Assembly: GCA_011051475.1 (NCBI GenBank)
Contig: DRLE01000267.1
Coordinates: 1-32,816 of the forward strand
Source of the DNA: Gammaproteobacteria bacterium
Lineage (GTDB): Bacteria; Pseudomonadota; Gammaproteobacteria; SZUA-229
DNA length: 32,816 nucleotides
Reading direction: 5' to 3'
The first letter of the stretch is position 1, and each line of letters opens with the position of its first letter. The notes under the pieces were generated by a model, which had not been told where the DNA came from, searched no databases, and saw only the letters and a program-made list of their open reading frames with translations. Made by a program: the position numbers and the translations under genes. Below, in pieces: positions 25,615 to 32,816 of the stretch.

Positions 25615-27579
25615 TCAGGCCTTACCCTGCAACTGCGCAATCACCGCCTCGTTCTCCAGCGTCGAGGTATCCGAGGTGATTTCCTCACCGGCGGCGATGG
25701 TGCGCAGCAGGCGGCGCATGATCTTGCCTGAGCGGGTTTTGGGCAGGCCTTCGGCAAAGCGGATGTCATCCGGCTTGGCGATGGGGCCGATCTGTTCGCC
25801 GACCCAGTCGCGAAGCTCCTTCGCCATTTTCTCTGCCGCTTCGCCGGTCGGACGTTCGCCCTTGCAGATAACAAAGGCAACAATGGCTTCGCCCTTGACC
25901 TCATGCGGGCGACCCACGACGGCGGCTTCGACCACGGCATCGTGTGCCACCAGCGCCGACTCGACTTCCATGGTACCGAGGCGGTGCCCGGAAACATTCA
26001 GCACATCATCGATACGGCCCATAATCCAGAAATAGCCATTCTCGTCGCGCCGCGCACTGTCGCCGGCGAGGTAGTACTTGCCGCCGAACTTGGGGTAATA
26101 GGTATCGGCATAACGCTGGTCATCGCCCCAGACGGTGCGCAGCATAGAGGGCCAGGGCTTTTTGATCACCAGATAGCCACCGGTATTGGCCTCGGTGATG
26201 GATTCGCCTTCCTCGTTGACCACGTCCGCCATCATGCCGGGCAGGGGCAGGGTGCAGGAGCCGGGCTTGGTCGCAGTGACGCCGGGAACCGGGCTGATCA
26301 CATGGGCGCCGGTTTCGGTCTGCCACCAGGTATCAACGATCGGACAGTTCTCCTTGCCGATCACCGTGTGATACCACATCCAGGCCTCCGGATTAATCGG
26401 TTCACCCACGGTGCCCAGCAGGCGCAGCGAGGACAGGTCATAGCTGTTGGGGAAATCATCGCCCAGTCTCATCAGGGCGCGGATGGCCGTCGGCGCCGTG
26501 TAGAAAATGGTCACCTTGTGTTCTTCCACCATTTTCCAGAAACGCCCGCCATCGGGAATGACCGGCGCGCCTTCATACATCACAATGGTGCTGGCGGCTG
26601 CCAGCGGGCCATAGGCGACATAGGTGTGGCCGGTGATCCAGCCGACATCGGCGGTACACCAGAATATGTCTTCATCGCGCAGGTCGAATACCCACAGATT
26701 GGTGGTAATGGCGTTAAGCAGATAGCCGGCACTGGCATGCTGGATGCCCTTGGGCTTGCCGGTTGAGCCGGAGGTATAGAGCAGAAACAGCGGGTGCTCG
26801 GCATTGACCCAGACCGGTTCACATTCGTTGCTCTGGCCGGCAATCGCGTCAGACCACCAGATATCACGGCCTTCCTGCATGGCGATATCATGGCCGGTGC
26901 GTTTCAGTACGATAACGTTCTTGATACAGTCACAACCACTGCTCAGTGCCTTGTCGGCCGCTTCCTTCAGCGGTACGATCTTGCCGCCGCGAGTGCCGCC
27001 ATCGGCGGTAATCAGCATCACCGCCTGCGCGTCTTCAATACGGTCACGCAGTGACTCGGCGGAAAAACCACCAAACACCACGGATTGAACCGCGCCGATA
27101 CGCGCGCAGGCCTGCATGGCAATCACCGCCTCGGGCACCATCGGCATATAGATCACCACGCGGTCACCTTCCCTGATGCCATGAGCCTTAAGAGCATTGG
27201 CAAATTCGCAGACTTCATCGTGCAGCTGCTGGTATGTCAGCTTGCGCACATCACCGCCTTCGCCTTCAAAGATAATCGCGGTTTTATCAGCGTGTTTTGC
27301 CAGATGGCGGTCGATGCAGTTATAGCTGACATTCATCTCACCATCGCTGAACCATTTAAAATGCGGTGCGTTGGATTCGTCCAGCGTTTGCGTGAACGGC
27401 TTCTGCCAGTCAATCAGTTCCCTGGCCAGGTCGGCCCAGAAACCCTCGTAGTCTTCTTCCGCGCGTTTATGCAGGGCGGCGAGGTCATCGGGCTTGATAC
27501 GAGCCCTGGCGGTAAATTCCGCACTGGGTTTGAACAGACGGTTTTCGATTAAAACAGAATTGATTTCAATGCCGGACAC
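25615..27579 (-). CDS. acs: Acetyl-CoA synthetase (acetate-CoA ligase)
   Basis: [58 protein letters not shown]. Confidence 0.97.
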
Positions 27580-27683
27580 GGTGGAATTCCTCTTGTTTTT
27601 GGCTTTGTTATTAGGGGTTTAGCATACACTGTGTGGGGCGAAAGTTCTATTGCCGATGTGAGCGCCGGGGAAAGCGCTTTGGG

Positions 27684-27942
27684 TTCGCAAATAACGCAAA
27701 AGACGCGAAAAAAGCTAAAAGCAGTTCACCACAGAGACACAGAGGCCACAGAGTTATAGTAATGTCGCCCTGAGTGGAACGCAGTAAAGTCGAAGGGGCT
27801 TATACTATTGTGTTTTCAGTAGTAGGCCGGCATAAGGAACGTTGCCGGCTTTTTTCATCCATTCGCCGGCAACGTTCCTTATGCCGGCCTACGAATATAT
27901 TATGTCTGAGCCGGGGTGTTTTTTTGCGCCTTTCGCGGCTAA
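27684..27942. repeat. Periodic-arm compound element D
   Basis: Left arms TTCGCAAATAACGCAAAAGACGCGAAAAAA (27684-27713) and TTCACCACAGAGACACAGAGGCCACAGAG (27725-27753). Right arm TTTTTTTGCGCCTTTCGCGGCTAA (27919-27942). Confidence 0.8.
27822..27892. repeat. GTAG-family REP doublet (REPIN-like)
   Basis: Perfect 28-bp inverted pair GTAGGCCGGCATAAGGAACGTTGCCGGC / GCCGGCAACGTTCCTTATGCCGGCCTAC. Each unit is GTAG followed by its own GCCGGCA...TGCCGGC hairpin. Confidence 0.9.
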
Positions 27943-28817
27943 ACAATCATTTTCGATTTCTGCGGTACCCGGCCAATATCCCAGTGCGTTAGCGACCACA
28001 GCCATATATCCTCCAGGCTGCTGCCGGCAAGTTCGCTCGGCGGCTGCTGGCCAAGAAAATCCAGTGCCCTGATCAGTAATTTTTCTCTGTCTTTGATATC
28101 TACCCGGCTGGCACCTTCCGACTTGCTGATTTTATTGCCATGCGCATCCACCGCCAGTGGCAGGTGCGCATATTGCGGTGTCGGGTAGCCCAGTTTCTGT
28201 TGCAGATAGATCTGTCTTGCGGTGGAATCGAGCAGATCGGCGCCACGTACGATCTCGGTCACACCCTGCAGGGCATCATCGACCACCACCGCCAGCTGGT
28301 AGGCAAACAGGCCATCGCGACGTTTGATAATAAAGTCACCGCATTCACTGGCCAGTGCCTGCTGTTGCTCGCCCATAATAATGTCGTTAAAGCGGATCGT
28401 AACTGCCTCTGTACACAGACGCAGTGCATGTTCATTCTGTTCCGGCATTGATCGCTGGCGACAGGTGCCGGGATAAACGGCCAGGCCGGCCAGCTGCTTG
28501 CGTGAACAGGTGCAGGGAAAGACAAGTTTCTGTGACAGCAGGCTGTCTAGCGCCTGCTGGTAAAGCTCGGTGCGCTGTGATTGATAAAGTACATCGCCCT
28601 GCCACTCAAAGCCAAAGGCTTCCAGTGTTTTCAGTATATCCGTATCCGCGCCTTCCACCCTGCGCGTGGTATCCACATCCTCCATACGCAATAACCAGTC
28701 GCCGCTGTTCGCTTTAGCCTGCAGATAACTGCCGACCGCGGCCAGCAACGTACCGAAGTGGACAGGGCCGGTGGGTGAGGGGGCGAAGCGGCCGATGTAG
28801 GTGGATGGAATGTGCAT
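27939..28817 (-). CDS. gluQ: Glutamyl-Q tRNA(Asp) synthetase
   Basis: GRFAPSPTGPVHFG, LRMEDVD, CTCSRK...YPGTCR, YQLAVVVDD, VRGADLL, KISKS. 292 aa with no anticodon-binding domain. Confidence 0.95.
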   Translation of the reverse strand: MHIPSTYIGRFAPSPTGPVHFGTLLAAVGSYLQAKANSGDWLLRMEDVDTTRRVEGADTDILKTLEAFGFEWQGDVLYQSQRTELYQQALDSLLSQKLVFPCTCSRKQLAGLAVYPGTCRQRSMPEQNEHALRLCTEAVTIRFNDIIMGEQQQALASECGDFIIKRRDGLFAYQLAVVVDDALQGVTEIVRGADLLDSTARQIYLQQKLGYPTPQYAHLPLAVDAHGNKISKSEGASRVDIKDREKLLIRALDFLGQQPPSELAGSSLEDIWLWSLTHWDIGRVPQKSKMIV

Positions 28818-28827
28818 TATGCGGTTA

Positions 28828-28866
28828 TTTTAGCCGCGAAGAACGCGAAGTGCGCAAAAAAAAGCA
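28828..28866 (+). repeat. Periodic arm E (left boundary of VPLPA-CTERM cassette)
   Basis: TTTTAGCCGCGAAGAACGCGAAGTGCGCAAAAAAAAGCA; inverted partner at 30303-30343. Confidence 0.8.
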
Positions 28867-28870
28867 CTTG

Positions 28871-28899
28871 AAAAAAAGAGCCTGATCAAGTCAGGCTCT
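28871..28899 (-). terminator. Intrinsic terminator of VPLPA-CTERM gene
   Basis: AGAGCCTGA-TCAAG-TCAGGCTCT with an A-tract on the left (a U-tract on the minus strand). Confidence 0.8.
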
Positions 28900-28924
28900 G
28901 TTGGTTGGTAATACGTGTAACCGT

Positions 28925-29779
28925 TCAGCAGGTTGCGCAGTTTTTCCGCCTTTTCTGAATACCAACCAGTCCGACCAGACCTGATGCAAACAACCACAGT
29001 GAGGCAGGCAAGGGCACGGCAGAAACATTACTTGTATAGCCGGGGTCAAGATTGAAGCCATTGAAGGAAAGGCTGGCGCTGATGGCGGCATCAGCGCTGG
29101 CCTGATTTGTTGTGTACCAGAACTCAAAGGTGTAGGGAGTGTTGAGCAATACGCTGATACTGCTGGTTGTCAGATTGGGTGCAACACTGATGTTATCGCC
29201 ACCAGGCGCGGAATTGTAGCTTTCCTGCTGAAAGTAATAACTACCTCCACGACAGTTATAGGAACAGACATCAGTTGGCTGATACAGGCTCATGCCGCCA
29301 CCAATGGCAATGCTGTAACTGGGGGTGGTGCTTGGTGTTCCCAGTTTGGCGTTCACCAGGGTTGTCACTAGCGTGCTGCTGCGGGTGAAATTGGCGCTAA
29401 CATTGATCCAGCCAGTATCCGTTCCGTTGATTGACGAGAAGATGACATCTTCCATGATGATGCGCCCCGTGACTTCAGGTATTTCGTAGGAGCCGAAAAA
29501 CCAGGCATCCGGGTTGTGCACGACTTCGATATAATTCTGGATGGTATTGCCGCTGGCGCTGGCCTCACCATAAATCTTTACATCGCCGCGACTGACCGTA
29601 TAAGCTGCGGCAGTGGCTCCTGCATTACCCGTATTATAATCAAAAACGGGTCCTGAGCCGACCTGGCCGACGCCAGCGCTGTAAATCGTTGCGGCATTAA
29701 CCGTGCCGGCAAGCAGGAGCATGGCCAGAGCGCTTGTTCCGGTGATCCTGGCAGAGAGTGATAAGTGTTTTCTGTTCAT
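28925..29779 (-). CDS. Exosortase-sorted surface protein (VPLPA-CTERM / PEP-CTERM class)
   Basis: Signal peptide ending VNA-A, Ser/Thr/Asn/Gly-rich body, C-terminus VSAVPLPASLWLFASGLVGLVGIQKRRK. Confidence 0.9.
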   Translation of the reverse strand: MNRKHLSLSARITGTSALAMLLLAGTVNAATIYSAGVGQVGSGPVFDYNTGNAGATAAAYTVSRGDVKIYGEASASGNTIQNYIEVVHNPDAWFFGSYEIPEVTGRIIMEDVIFSSINGTDTGWINVSANFTRSSTLVTTLVNAKLGTPSTTPSYSIAIGGGMSLYQPTDVCSYNCRGGSYYFQQESYNSAPGGDNISVAPNLTTSSISVLLNTPYTFEFWYTTNQASADAAISASLSFNGFNLDPGYTSNVSAVPLPASLWLFASGLVGLVGIQKRRKNCATC

Positions 29780-30024
29780 GAGCTTATCTCCTTATAAATC
29801 GGGGCAATGTAGCATTGCTTACATCGGTGCCAGCTGATTTGGTACATAGCTTCGGTTGTGTCGAAGCCAAATGTGTGACGTTCTAGCACGGAGTTAAGTA
29901 TGGTGTATTGGAGTCCGGTATTCTATCCCATATTTATGGGATGCAGATTCAATGTGTCGGATGGTATGCCCGGTTAATGAATAACCACCTTTAACAGCGC
30001 AAGACAGACTGGGCGGTAAACAGA

Positions 30025-30118
30025 AAATATATCATTCTCCTGATCGAGGACGATGACATTACCCGCCAGCGCTGCCATGGCACACCAGTTGCTCAAGCGT
30101 TCTCACATTGAATCGTAG
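30025..30118 (+). pseudogene. Possible response-regulator receiver-domain remnant
   Basis: Reads KYIILLIEDDDITRQR, like receiver beta1-alpha1. There is an in-frame TAA upstream (29992-29994) and the frame ends after about 28 codons. Confidence 0.35.
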
Positions 30119-30258
30119 GGATGGAAAAAGATCTCGCTCCTACAATGTTTTTTCGCTTTAGCCAGGATTGGCAGGATGATTAACTTTTGTGAGTGCTATT
30201 CCAGTATGAAGTGGCATAAGACCTCTTCGGCTACGCACAGAGTGACAAACTAAAAATA

Positions 30259-30343
30259 TTTGCGTTTATTCGCGTTCATTTGCGGAAAAAAAAACCGGCT
30301 TTTGCTTTTTTTTTTGCGCCTTTCGCTTTCTTCGCGGCCAGAA
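30259..30343 (-). repeat. Periodic arms F1 and F2 (right boundary of VPLPA-CTERM cassette)
   Basis: F1 reverse complement: TTTTCCGCAAATGAACGCGAATAAACGCAAA. F2 reverse complement: TTCTGGCCGCGAAGAAAGCGAAAGGCGCAAAAAAAAAAGCA. Confidence 0.8.
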
Positions 30344-30344
30344 A

Positions 30345-30374
30345 CAAAAAAGCCGGCAGAAACGACCGGCTTTT
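30345..30374 (-). terminator. Intrinsic terminator after dksA
   Basis: AAAAGCCGG-CAGAAACGA-CCGGCTTTT with an A-tract on the left. Confidence 0.7.
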
Positions 30375-30397
30375 CGTTAAACACAACAGCGCAAAAG

Positions 30398-30832
30398 TTA
30401 CTTCCCGCGCGTCTGCTTCTCCTTGATTTCATCCAGGCTCTTGCAGTCGATGCACTGTGTTGCGGTAGGACGTGCCTCCATGCGGCGCAGGCCGATTTCG
30501 ACGCCGCAGGTTTCGCAGTAGCCGTACTCGCCGGTGTTCATCAGGGCGAGAGTATCGTCGATTTTCTTGATGAGTTTGCGTTCGCGGTCGCGGGTGCGCA
30601 GTTCGAGGCTGAATTCTTCTTCCTGGGTAGCGCGGTCAGCGGGGTCGGGAAAGTTGGCGGCTTCGTCTTTCATGTGGTCCACGGTGCGGTCGACTTCCGA
30701 CATCAGCTCCATTTTCCAGGCATTGAGGATTTCCCTGAAGTGCTTGAGCTGCGCTTCATTCATGTATTCTTCACCTTTTTTCTCTTTATAAGGCTTAAAG
30801 GTGTGGTTTGTAATTGGCGCTGTATTTGCCAT
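30398..30832 (-). CDS. dksA: RNA polymerase-binding transcription factor DksA
   Basis: NFPDPADRATQEEEF (DxxDxA tip) and a 4-Cys zinc finger CETC...CIDC. Confidence 0.98.
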   Translation of the reverse strand: MANTAPITNHTFKPYKEKKGEEYMNEAQLKHFREILNAWKMELMSEVDRTVDHMKDEAANFPDPADRATQEEEFSLELRTRDRERKLIKKIDDTLALMNTGEYGYCETCGVEIGLRRMEARPTATQCIDCKSLDEIKEKQTRGK

Positions 30833-31047
30833 CTAGAACTCCAGTGTTTCTTGGTGTGTATTTTCTGGATTAAATAAAATCAATAACTTAGGTGTATCTT
30901 TTTCGGTATAAATTTTTGCGAGCGACTATTTACCATAAATTTGCGGCCTATTGCAAATAAAGTGGCTGAATGGCGCCGCCCGATATGCCATTAAATTCAA
31001 TGCCTGTTCTGTCATTATCGCACCAATGTTCGGGGCGAAAACAGTAA

Positions 31048-32816
31048 TTATAGCGGGTTTTTCTGGCTCTGCCCGTTGCCGCTCTGATCGTTGACAAACA
31101 GACGAAACAGCAGGGGGATGGCGAACAGGGTGAGCAGGCTGGAAAACGCCAGCCCCCAGACGATGGCGGTAGCCACCGGTCCCCAGATCAGGGATTTGCC
31201 GCCCAGGCCCAGGGCCAGTGAAGACAGGCCGGCAATGGTGGTCAGGGTGGTGATCAGTATCGGAATAATACGTCGGCGCGCCGCGTATATAGTGGCGTGG
31301 GTGATTTTCATGCCCCGGCGCAGGCGCTCGTTGGCAGCGGAAATCAGCACGATGGCGGCATTAACCGCGATACCGGCCAGGGCCACTACGCCATAAAGCG
31401 TGTACAGGCTGAGCGGGTTGCCGGTAATCAGCAGGCCCAGGGTAACACCGGTAAATGCCATGGGAATGGTGGAGATAATAATCAAGGGCTGGAAATAGCT
31501 TTTGAACTGCGTGCCGAGGATGGCGTAGATCAGCAGTGTGCCGAACAGCAGCAGGGTGAGCATGGAATTCATGCTTTCCTTGATGTCGTCCAGCTCGCCG
31601 CTGAAGTCGAGATCGTTATCGGGGAAGCGGTGGGCAATGGCATGCCAGCGCTGCTGGATCAGTTCATTGGCCTCGACCGTGTTCATGACGCTCTTGTCGA
31701 GATCGGCTTCGATAGTAATGGCGCGACGGTAGTTATAGTGGCGGATATTGCCCGGCCCGGTATCCCGGCTGTCATCAAGGAAAAAGGACAGTGGCCGGCT
31801 GCTGCCGTCGGGCAGGCTGATCTGGGTATAGAGCAGGCTTTCAATGGTGTGCAGGTCACGCGGTTCGGCACGTACGCGAATGTCCAGGGTTTCGCCCTGG
31901 TGCTGCATGGAAGCGACGACCTCACCGTCGACCAGCAGGCGCAGGTTGCGGGCGATCAGGGCAGGACTGATACCGCTCTGCTGAATGGCATAGCTGTCGA
32001 ATACCAGGTTCAGCTCATTGCGGCCTTTGGAGGCATCATCGGAAATGTCCTTGATGGCCGGGATACTGTGCAGAATGCCTTTCAGGGCATCGGCCGCCTG
32101 CTGCAGCTGTTCAAGTTTGTCACCGCGTATCTTGACACTGACCGGTTTTTCTACCGGCGGGCCGCCGGCGAGACGGAAGAAGGAAATGTTCAGCGGTCCG
32201 GGGTAGTCGCTGACCGCGCTGCGGATTGCGTTGAGCACCGTGTCAACATGGCGGAAGCGGTTGTCGTCATCGGGCTTCAGGCTGACCATGATCTGCCCGT
32301 ACTGGTTGCCGAAGAACGGCTCCTTCTCGGTAAACATCTGGCCGGCATAACTGACCAGGGCGCGGGTTTCGTCCTTGTGCAGGATGCTGCGGGCTATGGA
32401 CTCGATTTCGACCGTGGTTTTCAGGGTCTGCTGCAGCGGCGTGCCCGGCGGCATTTCCACATTGATATAGAACTTGCGGATCGGGTCGCTGGCAAAAAAG
32501 TTAAACTCGACCATCTGCGCCGCAATGGCGCCGACTGCCAGAATAAAGGGCAGCACAATAACCACCATGGCGCGTAGCGGATAGCGCATGACCCTGATCA
32601 GGGCGCGCACATAGGCAATCTGCAGTTTGTGGGTATAGCGATGGCGCCACTGCTGGATTTTCGAGGGCTGATTGAAATCGGTTTTCGAGGCGATAACGTG
32701 CGCCGGCAGCATCCAGTAGGCTTCTACCAGGCTGATGGCCAGGGCAATGGAGACCACCAGCGGCACCACCATCATAAACTTGCCCATAATGCCGGGCATC
32801 AGCACCAGCGGCAGGA
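31048..32816 (-). CDS. AcrB/RND-family efflux transporter (5' part outside window)
   Basis: The frame is open to the right edge. Motifs VEAYWMLPAH, GTQFKSYFQPLII, GIAVNAAIVL, RIIPILITTLTTIAGL. Confidence 0.93.
   Translation of the reverse strand, partial: LPLVLMPGIMGKFMMVVPLVVSIALAISLVEAYWMLPAHVIASKTDFNQPSKIQQWRHRYTHKLQIAYVRALIRVMRYPLRAMVVIVLPFILAVGAIAAQMVEFNFFASDPIRKFYINVEMPPGTPLQQTLKTTVEIESIARSILHKDETRALVSYAGQMFTEKEPFFGNQYGQIMVSLKPDDDNRFRHVDTVLNAIRSAVSDYPGPLNISFFRLAGGPPVEKPVSVKIRGDKLEQLQQAADALKGILHSIPAIKDISDDASKGRNELNLVFDSYAIQQSGISPALIARNLRLLVDGEVVASMQHQGETLDIRVRAEPRDLHTIESLLYTQISLPDGSSRPLSFFLDDSRDTGPGNIRHYNYRRAITIEADLDKSVMNTVEANELIQQRWHAIAHRFPDNDLDFSGELDDIKESMNSMLTLLLFGTLLIYAILGTQFKSYFQPLIIISTIPMAFTGVTLGLLITGNPLSLYTLYGVVALAGIAVNAAIVLISAANERLRRGMKITHATIYAARRRIIPILITTLTTIAGLSSLALGLGGKSLIWGPVATAIVWGLAFSSLLTLFAIPLLFRLFVNDQSGNGQSQKNPL

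What the first reader, a model, noticed from the sequence alone, without database searches (positions are those of the whole stretch)
28828..30343. A 1.5-kb cassette carrying a complete VPLPA-CTERM gene is bracketed by inverted periodic arms and splits dksA-gluQ
Seen: arm E (GCCGCGAAGAACGCGAAGTGCGCAAAAAAAA) and the reverse complement of arm F2 (GCCGCGAAGAAAGCGAAAGGCGCAAAAAAAA) match at 28/31 positions. They lie about 10 nt upstream of the gluQ start and immediately after the dksA terminator. Between them are the surface-protein gene, its own terminator, its upstream region and repeat debris. Established: dksA and gluQ (yadB) are directly adjacent in E. coli and many gammaproteobacteria. Inference: the arms can capture or mobilise protein-coding cargo, or they mark a hotspot where accessory genes are inserted without a local transposase or integrase.
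Basis: partly seen in the sequence, partly recalled or inferred. Interest (0 to 1): 0.8.

Follow-up and report, generated by a model that had tools for sequence, protein, structure and literature searches.

The report
Surface-protein gene nested inside a split repeat
A rare secreted-protein gene sits in the normally short gap between dksA and gluQ, inside a common palindromic repeat element whose two halves now lie 1.4 kb apart; the repeat halves most likely were there first and did not carry the gene in.

Summary
Arm E (28833-28863, +) and arm F2 (30308-30338, -) match at 28/31. They bracket a 284-aa VPLPA/PEP-CTERM gene with its own terminator, between dksA and gluQ.

The arms are not special to this site. 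They belong to a genome-wide family: 127-162 nhmmer hits in 2.24 Mb. Members occur almost only as convergent inverted pairs 2-330 nt apart, so the family is MITE/REPIN-like.

In 26 other species of the genus with both genes on one contig, the dksA-gluQ spacer is 111-482 nt in 23. Most of these carry a palindromic periodic-arm element at the same place, from just after the dksA terminator to 13-19 nt before the gluQ ATG. Its interior ranges from 18 to about 340 nt.

Three other species carry 3.6-5.2 kb of unrelated genes in this spacer. None is bounded by arms, and none of the three genomes matches the GCCGC arm pattern anywhere.

The cargo gene has no full-length relative in 33 genus genomes. 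It has only two relatives among 5.8 billion proteins. It is single-copy, with no transposase or integrase among the eight large ORFs scanned on either side.

Best reading (0.6): a foreign 1.3-kb gene module was inserted into the interior of a resident repeat element in a real intergenic hotspot. Arms acting as cargo-mobilising ends is not excluded (about 0.1-0.2). Interest is modest.

The parts
27686..27943 (.). Second arm-bounded element of the same family. It has 207 nt of interior holding a CACAGAG-type inner arm and a perfect 28-nt REP-like palindrome pair (27822-27892). Its right arm abuts the gluQ stop codon.
   Evidence: nhmmer arms at 27686-27713 (+) and 27921-27943 (-). Palindrome is I2. 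Interior printed.
27939..28817 (-). gluQ (tRNA glutamyl-Q34 synthetase), 292 aa.
   Evidence: TIGR03838 368.8 bits against cut-off 276.7. PF00749.
28828..28863 (+). Arm E, the outer periodic arm on the gluQ side. It starts 15 nt from the gluQ ATG.
   Evidence: nhmmer E=1.3e-9.
28877..28899 (-). Intrinsic terminator of the PEP-CTERM gene: 9-bp stem followed by T7.
   Evidence: dG -18 kcal/mol for the 80-nt stretch, z=-5.2.
28925..29779 (-). Cargo gene: a 284-aa secreted VPLPA/PEP-CTERM protein. The Shine-Dalgarno AAGGAGA lies at 29787-29793 (-).
   Evidence: Relatives of 73-75% identity, aligned.
29780..30150 (-). Upstream region of the cargo gene. It is unique in this genome, has about 44-51% GC, and no promoter was recognised by the simple scan.
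   Evidence: blastn against the whole genome finds no other copy of 28877-30209 apart from the tag. GC. Promoter scan.
30150..30250 (-). Degenerate nested hairpin repeat of the GTCATCCTGAGCG type. One half is well preserved (about 30210-30250) and the other is decayed.
   Evidence: Alignment to paralogs C264, C13, C210, C212 and C258. Repeat coverage.
30255..30290 (-). Arm F1, an inner periodic arm of the CCGCAAATGAACGCGAATAAACGCAAAT type, in the same direction as F2.
   Evidence: Word depth of 1957/435/2414 in the bin 30214-30300 that holds it, in three metagenome runs, shows a very high-copy repeat.
30308..30344 (-). Arm F2, the outer periodic arm on the dksA side. It ends 8 nt after the dksA terminator stem.
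   Evidence: nhmmer E=2.6e-7.
30347..30375 (-). dksA intrinsic terminator.
   Evidence: A comparable hairpin plus T-run is visible after dksA in the relatives' printed spacers.
30398..30832 (-). dksA, 144 aa.
   Evidence: TIGR02420 169.1 bits against cut-off 115.5. PF21157 and PF01258.

Best explanation
The spacer between the dksA terminator and the gluQ start codon is, across this genus, the home of a palindromic MITE/REPIN-like 'periodic-arm' element. In this genome a foreign module of about 1.3 kb was inserted into that element's interior. The module comprises an upstream region, a secreted VPLPA/PEP-CTERM protein gene and an intrinsic terminator. The insertion replaced the inner half on the gluQ side. 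As a result the element's two outer arms, F2 and E, now lie 1444 nt apart and appear to bracket a cassette.

The arms are the split halves of the resident repeat. They are not the vehicle.

The spacer as a whole is an integration hotspot that works without the arms.

Shown: family membership of the arms; their positional equivalence with relatives' elements; uniqueness and rarity of the cargo; absence of mobility genes among the scanned neighbours; cargo in arm-free relatives.

Inferred: the order of events, and the integration mechanism. The likely mechanism is illegitimate recombination, or homologous recombination through the conserved flanking genes. dksA is about 85-92% identical in protein across the genus.
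For: 1. The arm is one member of a dispersed family. nhmmer with a profile of 60 copies gives 127 hits at E<=1e-3 and 162 at E<=0.1 in 2.24 Mb. A degenerate pattern gives 95 matches against 0 for the reversed control.

2. Of 82 adjacent same-contig arm pairs, 57 are convergent (+ then -). 52 of those 57 have gaps under 500 nt: 25 under 30 nt, 5 of 30-100 nt, and 22 of 100-500 nt. The unit is therefore a hairpin-forming element with a variable interior. The interiors hold other nested repeats.

3. Orthologous site. I classified the printed spacers of 23 short-spacer species by eye. 15 show a complete palindromic periodic-arm element and 3 show a remnant. In each it runs from the T-run of the dksA terminator to 13-19 nt before the gluQ ATG, exactly where F2 and E lie. 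G014 has the same arm type with an 18-nt loop, folding at -37.4 kcal/mol with z=-10. G010 has a 116-nt interior. G021 has about 340 nt.

4. The F side (outer arm, inner arm, nested hairpin) is the standard composite seen in cargo-free paralogs C258, C36, C264 and C13. Only the gluQ side lacks the inner arm. One insertion-plus-deletion event therefore explains the layout.

5. The cargo is foreign and unique.
- No listed match in 33 genus genomes reaches N-terminal of residue 173. Only the sorting tag matches.
- Only 2 relatives (75% and 73% identity) exist among 5.8 billion proteins.
- No relative was found in the JGI metagenome contigs. In the GTDB genome contigs the only hit was a 17-residue match in a Bacteroidota MAG.
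- 28877-30209 has no second copy in the genome.

6. The interior of such elements does receive insertions. The C271 pair (gap 1531 nt) holds an IS110-family IS (PF01548 + PF02371) inside its nested hairpin. The empty paralog is at C181.

7. The hotspot does not depend on the arms. G004, G006 and G024 hold 3626, 4627 and 5251 nt of other genes in the spacer. All three gave 0 matches to the GCCGC arm pattern genome-wide.
Against: - The two-gene tree (quick method; the careful search did not finish) does not place G000 with G014/G010. Arm type at this site is not clustered on the tree. Vertical inheritance of this particular arm pair is therefore not shown. The site may instead be re-colonised repeatedly.
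- In G014 about 70 arms are nearly identical, which points to a recent burst. That fits re-colonisation.
- About a third of arms in G000 have no detected partner. Convergent solo arms do bracket core genes at C18 and C207. Two independent solo arms are therefore possible.
- Partner arms are barely more alike than random family pairs (mean 6.7 against 7.3 differences). The 28/31 match is only weak evidence that E and F2 were once one element.
- No empty-site strain of the same species was found.
- The F1/F2 junction rests on the MAG assembly alone.
Confidence: 0.6

Rival explanations
1. The arms are the terminal inverted repeats of a non-autonomous, trans-mobilised element carrying a passenger gene, similar to a mobile insertion cassette. 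Alternatively, arm-to-arm homologous recombination exchanged the interior. In either case the arms delivered or captured the gene.
For: - The orientation is the family's normal convergent one.
- Relatives have the same arms at the same site with different interiors.
- E and F2 are each other's joint-nearest family members.
- The family is evidently mobile: about 70 near-identical arms occur in G014, many at contig ends.
Against: - The cassette is single-copy.
- No direct target duplication is seen. The flanks GTTTCTG and TAAAATA differ.
- 0 of 10 other PEP-CTERM tags are bracketed by arms.
- 52 of 57 convergent pairs in G000, 25 of 25 in G014, and 22 of 26 adjacent convergent pairs in G046 are about 500 nt or less (the last two counted by eye).
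- The only pair of 0.5-5 kb in G046 is two complete elements flanking genes found in 16 of 34 genus genomes.
- The element is asymmetric, with an inner arm on one side only.
- No transposase tied to these arms was found. The RAYTs on C15 and C179 are flanked by other repeats.
Confidence: 0.15
2. The gene arrived in the spacer first. Two independent solo arms, or two elements that each lost a partner, later landed on either side of it. One landed after the dksA terminator and the other after the new gene's terminator.
For: - Roughly a third of arms have no detected partner.
- Convergent solo arms bracket core genes at C18 (gap 2263 nt) and C207 (gap 2581 nt).
- Arms commonly follow T-runs: T predominates at -5 to -1 in 60 copies.
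Against: - It needs two insertions plus two partner losses.
- It needs both arms to land at exactly the positions that the intact element's ends occupy in relatives.
- The F side is a normal left half (outer arm, inner arm, nested hairpin) with no right half of its own.
Confidence: 0.15
3. Assembly artefact: the contig joins the cassette to dksA through the high-copy F1/F2 repeat, and the cassette really lies elsewhere.
For: No listed Logan contig bridges 30271-30310. The bin holding F1 has word depth of 1957/435/2414 against about 13-25 beside it in X1, with many loose ends.
Against: - The gluQ side is bridged by contigs in two studies.
- The join restores the genus-wide dksA-gluQ order and strand, which a random chimera would rarely do.
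- Paralogous copies of the repeat are only 68-84% identical over 60-140 nt, so assemblers using long k-mers can cross it.
Confidence: 0.05

Closest known systems
REPINs (REP doublets forming hairpins) mobilised by RAYT transposases (Bertels & Rainey 2011, PMC3116915; abstract read)
   Same: High-copy short repeats organised as inverted doublets with a spacer, predicted to form hairpins. They persist at fixed sites in a lineage. A classical REP/RAYT system also exists in this genome: on C15, a Y1_Tnp gene is flanked by GTAGGCCGGC doublets.
   Different: A single periodic arm is not itself a palindrome. Instead it is three units of about 9-10 nt of the form CGCRAA or CACAGAG. No RAYT flanked by these arms was found. 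Interiors vary from 2 to 330 nt and host other repeats.
MITEs and mobile insertion cassettes (TIR-bounded, transposase-less elements, some with passenger genes; term recalled, no paper read)
   Same: Inverted terminal arms, small size, many copies, subfamilies defined by interior, and bursts of near-identical copies in one genome. The window's layout resembles a passenger-carrying version.
   Different: No target-site duplication was seen. No cognate IS with the same ends was found. The gene-carrying form is single-copy and asymmetric.
Chromosomal integration hotspots between conserved core genes (concept recalled; only search listings were seen)
   Same: The same core-gene-flanked interval holds different accessory genes in different species, without local integrases.
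   Different: The hotspot splits a conserved gene pair and coincides with a resident palindromic repeat. In Shigella that pair is co-transcribed (Caballero 2012, PMC3542578; abstract read).
REP sequences as targets of IS elements, including IS110/IS1111 types (Tobes & Pareja 2006, PMC1525189, and 2024 bridge/seekRNA papers; search listing only)
   Same: In this genome an IS110-family IS sits inside a nested hairpin repeat within an arm-bounded element (C271). The empty paralog is at C181.
   Different: The window's insert has no transposase and no IS ends. Its breakpoint is in or near the nested hairpin's decayed half, not at the IS110 target seen in C271.

Membership tests
REPIN/RAYT system | Two inverted copies of a repeat separated by a short spacer, forming a hairpin. 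| tested here: met
   52 of 57 convergent adjacent pairs have gaps under 500 nt. The G014 copy at this site folds at -37.4 kcal/mol, z=-10.
REPIN/RAYT system | Each REP unit is itself an imperfect palindrome. | tested here: not met
   The arms are periodic, not palindromic. The F2+F1 stretch folds no better than shuffles (z=0.36; 122 of 200 shuffles fold as well).
REPIN/RAYT system | A cognate RAYT (Y1 transposase) gene flanked by the same repeats. | tested here: not met
   There are 3 Y1_Tnp loci. C15 is flanked by GTAGGCCGGC doublets, C179 by CAGGTGTCGGAGTC hairpins, and C278 by none. The genome is only 79% complete, so a missed gene is possible.
MITE / mobile insertion cassette | Terminal inverted repeats bounding a short element without a transposase, present in many copies. 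| tested here: met
MITE / mobile insertion cassette | Direct target-site duplication at the ends. | tested here: inconclusive
   No direct repeat flanks E and F2. In G014 the flanks are themselves inverted, so the true ends are unclear.
MITE / mobile insertion cassette | The passenger-carrying unit is found at more than one site, or with a cognate IS sharing its ends. | tested here: not met
   28877-30209 is single-copy in the genome. The gene is absent from 33 genus genomes. No relative was found in the JGI metagenome contigs; the GTDB genome contigs gave only a 17-residue match.
PEP-CTERM / VPLPA-CTERM exosortase substrates | C-terminal motif, transmembrane helix and basic cluster recognised by the family HMM. 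| tested here: inconclusive
   TIGR03370 24.4 bits against cut-off 25.35. PF07589 20.3 against 20.7. The motif VPLPASLWLFASGLVGLVGIQKRRK is read directly and is conserved in both relatives.
PEP-CTERM / VPLPA-CTERM exosortase substrates | An exosortase is encoded in the same genome. | tested here: not met
   PF09721 gives 0 matches in G000, which is 79% complete. 19 of 34 genus genomes have one above the cut-off. Absence is not shown.
dksA-gluQ conserved gene pair | dksA immediately upstream of gluQ on the same strand, with a terminator between them. | tested here: met
   Both genes are above equivalog cut-offs. The spacer is -11 to 114 nt in 5 genomes of other families and 111-482 nt in 23 genus genomes. 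Terminator. Literature: Caballero 2012, abstract.
Integration hotspot | Different accessory content at the same core-flanked interval in related genomes. | tested here: met
   4 of 27 genus genomes carry genes there. The content differs, although G004 and G024 share a remnant.

The most novel reading that the evidence does not exclude
The periodic-arm palindromes act as integrase-free landing pads or cassette holders. Their interior is a preferred entry point for foreign DNA, and arm-to-arm recombination or trans-mobilisation can move whatever lies between the arms. On this reading the PEP-CTERM module is the first caught example of a gene-sized cargo in a family that otherwise carries only small nested repeats.
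Probability: 0.12. Interest if true: 0.65.

Novelty: new member of a known kind. Interest (0 to 1): 0.3.

Why it matters
This is a clean example of how a very conserved gene pair can be split by an accessory surface-protein gene with no mobility gene among its scanned neighbours. In Shigella that pair is co-transcribed.

It also shows how a resident palindromic repeat can make such an insertion look like a transposon-style cassette.

For annotation, inverted 'arms' around a gene in repeat-rich genomes should be checked against the repeat family's normal architecture, and against orthologous sites, before mobility is inferred.

The wider repeat system may deserve its own study. It has three arm types with an 8-10-nt period, nested hairpins, the same site occupied by different types in different species, and bursts in single genomes. 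No paper in the searched library holds the four arm motifs tried, and Rfam has no family for the arms.

Tried and rejected
- Structure of the cargo protein. AlphaFold2 on the 3-sequence alignment gave mean pLDDT 31.6. This is unusable, so no fold search was run.
- Rfam at E<=1 over 27400-31100. Only chance miRNA-like hits on the REP palindrome, and nothing on the arms.
- Relatives of the cargo gene in contigs. Two scans of the JGI metagenome contigs found none. One scan of GTDB genome contigs found only a 17-residue match in a Bacteroidota MAG.
- Read evidence for excision, inversion or circles. Only Logan contigs were available, not raw reads. The joints 28793->30397 (X3) and 28705->30642 (X4) come from contigs about 90% alike, with 24-26 nt on the shorter side and unknown letters between. 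I read them as other species with short spacers, not as excision. Uncovered parts in X2-X4 carry no weight.
- Integron-like reading. There is no integrase among the 8 neighbouring ORFs scanned, no cassette array, and the arms do not resemble attC sites. The attC comparison is from recall and was not tested with a model.
- GC content. The cassette is 44-55% against 55-60% for neighbouring genes. The shift is too small to prove foreign origin.
- Enrichment of arms near PEP-CTERM genes. 1 of 10 tags lies within 100 nt of an arm and 3 of 10 within 1 kb, against 1.4% and 8.7% of random positions. Two of the three are adjacent genes, and gene ends are near intergenic DNA anyway, so this is not meaningful.
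- Two-gene tree. The careful search did not finish in 288 s. The quick tree left 18 of 29 inner branches open.
Full report
**Layout.** The window is contig C267 of a 2.24-Mb, 279-contig genome estimated 79% complete. All relevant genes are on the minus strand. Read in the direction of transcription:
- dksA, 30832-30398
- its intrinsic terminator, 30375-30347
- outer arm F2, 30344-30308
- inner arm F1, about 30290-30255, same direction as F2
- a degenerate nested hairpin repeat, about 30250-30150
- about 370 nt of unique upstream DNA
- a 284-aa ORF, 29779-28925, preceded by AAGGAGA
- its own terminator, 28899-28877
- arm E, 28863-28828
- 15 nt of spacer
- gluQ, 28817-27939

dksA and gluQ are both above NCBIfam equivalog cut-offs. 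The ORF has a signal-like N-terminus and a VPLPA + hydrophobic + KRRK C-terminus, read directly from the sequence. Its HMM scores fall just under the curated cut-offs: 24.4 against 25.35 and 20.3 against 20.7.

**The observation.** Arm E and the reverse complement of F2 match at 28 of 31 positions. No shuffle of the window gives any match. The inverted repeat extends to 36 nt at 86%.

**What the arms are.** Arm E is not a local oddity.
- Fuzzy matching finds 89 copies in the genome within 7 mismatches.
- A profile built from 60 copies finds 127 hits at E<=1e-3 and 162 at E<=0.1.
- The consensus is T5-GCCGC-RAAG-RACGC-AAAR-NGCGC-RAAAAAAA, a roughly 9-nt period.
- Of 82 adjacent same-contig pairs, 57 are convergent. 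52 of those have gaps under 500 nt, in two classes: 2-30 nt and 72-330 nt.

The basic unit is therefore a hairpin-forming element with two arms and a variable interior. Those interiors contain other repeats:
- an inner arm type (CCGCAAATGAACGCAAATAAACGCAAAT, called 'F1', and a CACAGAG variant)
- GTCATCCTGAGCG-type hairpins
- classical GTAG-headed REP doublets, which also flank a Y1-transposase gene on contig C15

Rfam has no matching family. Four arm motifs searched as text occur in no paper of the library.

Within the family, 28/31 is only in the top 5% of random pairs. True partners are hardly more alike than non-partners.

**The orthologous site.** I located dksA and gluQ in the genus (34 species genomes including this one) and in outgroups.
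- In five genomes of other families the spacer is -11 to 114 nt.
- In the genus, 26 other genomes have both genes on one contig. The spacer is 111-482 nt in 23, and 3626, 4627 and 5251 nt in G004, G006 and G024. In this genome it is 1580 nt.
- G003, G012 and G016 could not be measured because of contig ends. One search suggests about 340 nt for G003.
- G043's contig ends about 200 nt after dksA, so its spacer could not be measured.
- G047, G049 and G008 gave no dksA match at the threshold used.

I classified the printed short spacers by eye. They show one recurring design: the dksA terminator, then a palindromic periodic-arm element, then 13-19 nt, then the gluQ ATG.
- GCCGC/CCGCGAAG type: G014 (18-nt loop), G010 (116-nt interior), G009 (decayed)
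- F1 type: G002, G013, G021 (about 340-nt interior), G046
- CACAGAG type: G005, G018, G048, G011, G017, G007, G044
- Remnants: G042, G023, G015
- Not recognisable: G019, G045, G041, G022, G001, G020

F2 and E lie exactly where the two ends of these elements lie.

**But the arms are not what makes the hotspot.**
- G004, G006 and G024 carry unrelated genes in the spacer. These are a 7TMR-DISM histidine kinase with a LuxR-type regulator and a 538-aa protein; a DUF5666 protein and others; and a metallophosphoesterase and others.
- These three genomes gave no match to the GCCGC arm pattern anywhere.
- In G024 a small complete palindromic element sits next to the dksA terminator, and the cargo lies beyond it. 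G004 and G006 have no arms at either junction. G004 and G024 share a remnant of the regulator's 3' end before gluQ.

**The cargo.**
- Only the last ~110 residues of the 284-aa protein (mostly the sorting tag) match anything in the 33 other genus genomes. No listed match starts before residue 173, and 105 weaker matches were not listed.
- In 5.8 billion clustered proteins it has two relatives, at 75% and 73% identity, on very short ENA contigs.
- Scans of the JGI metagenome contigs found no relative. The GTDB genome-contig scan gave only a 17-residue match in a Bacteroidota MAG.
- The stretch 28877-30209 has no other copy in the genome. Only the two ends, 28801-28876 and 30210-30358, are repeated, with up to 14 and 115 copies.
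- GC is slightly lower than in the neighbours.
- No transposase or integrase is among the 8 large ORFs scanned from 17.9 kb to the window's end. The only tRNA is 23 kb away.
- The AlphaFold model was unusable.

**Is gene cargo between arms a pattern?**
- In this genome, only 5 of 57 convergent pairs exceed 500 nt.
  - C271 (gap 1531 nt) contains an IS110-family IS inserted into the nested hairpin. The empty paralog is on C181.
  - C18 and C207 enclose ordinary chromosomal genes, so they are independent solo arms.
  - One pair is over 3 kb.
  - The fifth is the window's pair.
- In G014, 25 of 25 same-contig convergent pairs are 41-502 nt start to start. The 502-nt one holds no ORF of 50 aa or more wholly inside it (counted by eye).
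- In G046, 22 pairs are 206 nt or less. The only one between 0.5 and 5 kb (3564 nt) is really two complete elements flanking a lipoprotein gene pair found in 16 of 34 genus genomes.
- None of the 10 other PEP-CTERM tags in this genome is arm-bracketed.

**Boundaries of the insert.**
- On the gluQ side, the unique DNA starts 13 nt from arm E.
- On the dksA side, it starts 100-160 nt inside F2, after F1 and the nested hairpin.
- That F-side composite is the same as in cargo-free paralogs such as C258, which has the full symmetric form: outer arm, inner arm, hairpin, inner arm, outer arm.
- The simplest history is one insertion into the interior, with loss of the inner arm on the gluQ side.

**What remains open.**
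- The two-gene tree is poorly resolved and does not group G000 with G014/G010. Arm types are scattered on it.
- In G014 about 70 arms are nearly identical, and many sit at contig ends.
- The family is therefore mobile, and the site may be re-colonised rather than simply inherited.
- This keeps alive two other readings: that the arms arrived with the gene, or that they arrived separately on either side of it. I put these at about 0.15 each.

**Independent sequence support.**
- Logan contigs bridge gluQ, arm E, the terminator and the gene in runs from two studies.
- The F1/F2 junction is not bridged, because F1 is an extremely abundant repeat in these hydrothermal-vent metagenomes.
- The only joints that skip the cassette come from contigs about 90% alike, which I read as other species.
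- Contigs cannot show rare excised forms.

**Comparison with known systems.** The arms behave like REPINs or MITEs. However, they fail two REPIN criteria tested here: the unit is not palindromic, and no RAYT is flanked by them. The window's layout resembles a passenger-carrying MITE (mobile insertion cassette), but it is single-copy, asymmetric and has no visible target duplication. The dksA-gluQ pair and the terminator between the two genes are known from Shigella (Caballero 2012; abstract read). REPINs are described by Bertels & Rainey 2011 (abstract read). REPs as IS targets, and IS110 targeting, were seen only as search listings. Supplementary files were not consulted.

**Verdict.** The feature is real and correctly described, and the hotspot is real. 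The mobilising role proposed for the arms is not supported. The most likely event is a foreign PEP-CTERM gene module inserted into a resident palindromic repeat.

Noticed in passing
Spacers of relatives: loci L003-L024 and L058-L064 (printed): The same orthologous site, from the dksA terminator to the gluQ ATG, is occupied in different species by palindromic elements of three different arm types (GCCGCGAAG, CCGCAAATGAACGC, CACCACAGAGGCACAGAG). All have an 8-10-nt period. The types are not clustered on a dksA+gluQ tree. This suggests turnover, homing or concerted evolution at a fixed site.
   Followed up: partly
G014 genome-wide; loci L072-L083: About 70 arms in G014 are nearly identical (TCCGCGAAGAACGCAAAAGACGCGAA), and many lie at contig ends. 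This looks like a recent burst. In many copies the arms are flanked by a further layer of about 75 nt of inverted repeat. Interiors fall into subfamilies found in both orientations.
   Followed up: partly
G000 contig C271:57-1638 (L087) and C181:14949-15177 (L088): An IS110-family IS (342-aa transposase, PF01548 + PF02371) is inserted inside a GTCATCCTGAGCG-type hairpin, between CGCTCA and AGGATGAC. That hairpin is itself nested in an arm-bounded element. C181 is the uninterrupted paralog, 97-100% identical on both sides.
   Followed up: yes
window 27822-27892; G000 C15:600-690 and 1250-1325: A perfect 28-nt palindrome pair in the window (GTAGGCCGGCATAAGG...) belongs to a classical REP family. 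Doublets of this family flank a Y1-transposase (RAYT-like) gene on C15. A second Y1 gene on C179 is flanked by a different hairpin (CAGGTGTCGGAGTC).
   Followed up: partly
window 30214-30300 (holds F1, about 30255-30290): This 87-nt bin has summed word depth of 1957, 435 and 2414 in three vent-metagenome runs, against about 13-25 for neighbouring DNA in X1. Dozens of different loose ends flank it. This arm type is very abundant in those communities.
   Followed up: no
window 27921-27943: The right arm of the second element begins at the gluQ stop codon (TAG|CCGCGAAAGG on the minus strand). gluQ is therefore hemmed in by family members at both ends.
   Followed up: no
G000 whole genome; genus: No exosortase (PF09721) was found in G000, which is 79% complete, although it has at least 9 PEP-CTERM tags. 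19 of 34 genus genomes have one above the cut-off.
   Followed up: partly
L006 (G020) dksA-gluQ spacer, printed: The G020 spacer (365 nt) holds about three and a half tandem copies of a roughly 62-nt unit (…ATATCGCAAAGAGCCAGGGATGGCGGTGCGAATATGGTCAGGATGTAC…) in place of a periodic-arm element.
   Followed up: no
L090 (G046:C34:27800-33500): Two copies of a composite repeat of about 230 nt, 85-89% alike and in inverted orientation, flank a 3.35-kb block. The block holds two lipoprotein genes, a Gly/Asn-rich repeat protein and a 194-aa protein. The lipoprotein pair is found in 16 of 34 genus genomes, so the block looks resident rather than mobile.
   Followed up: partly
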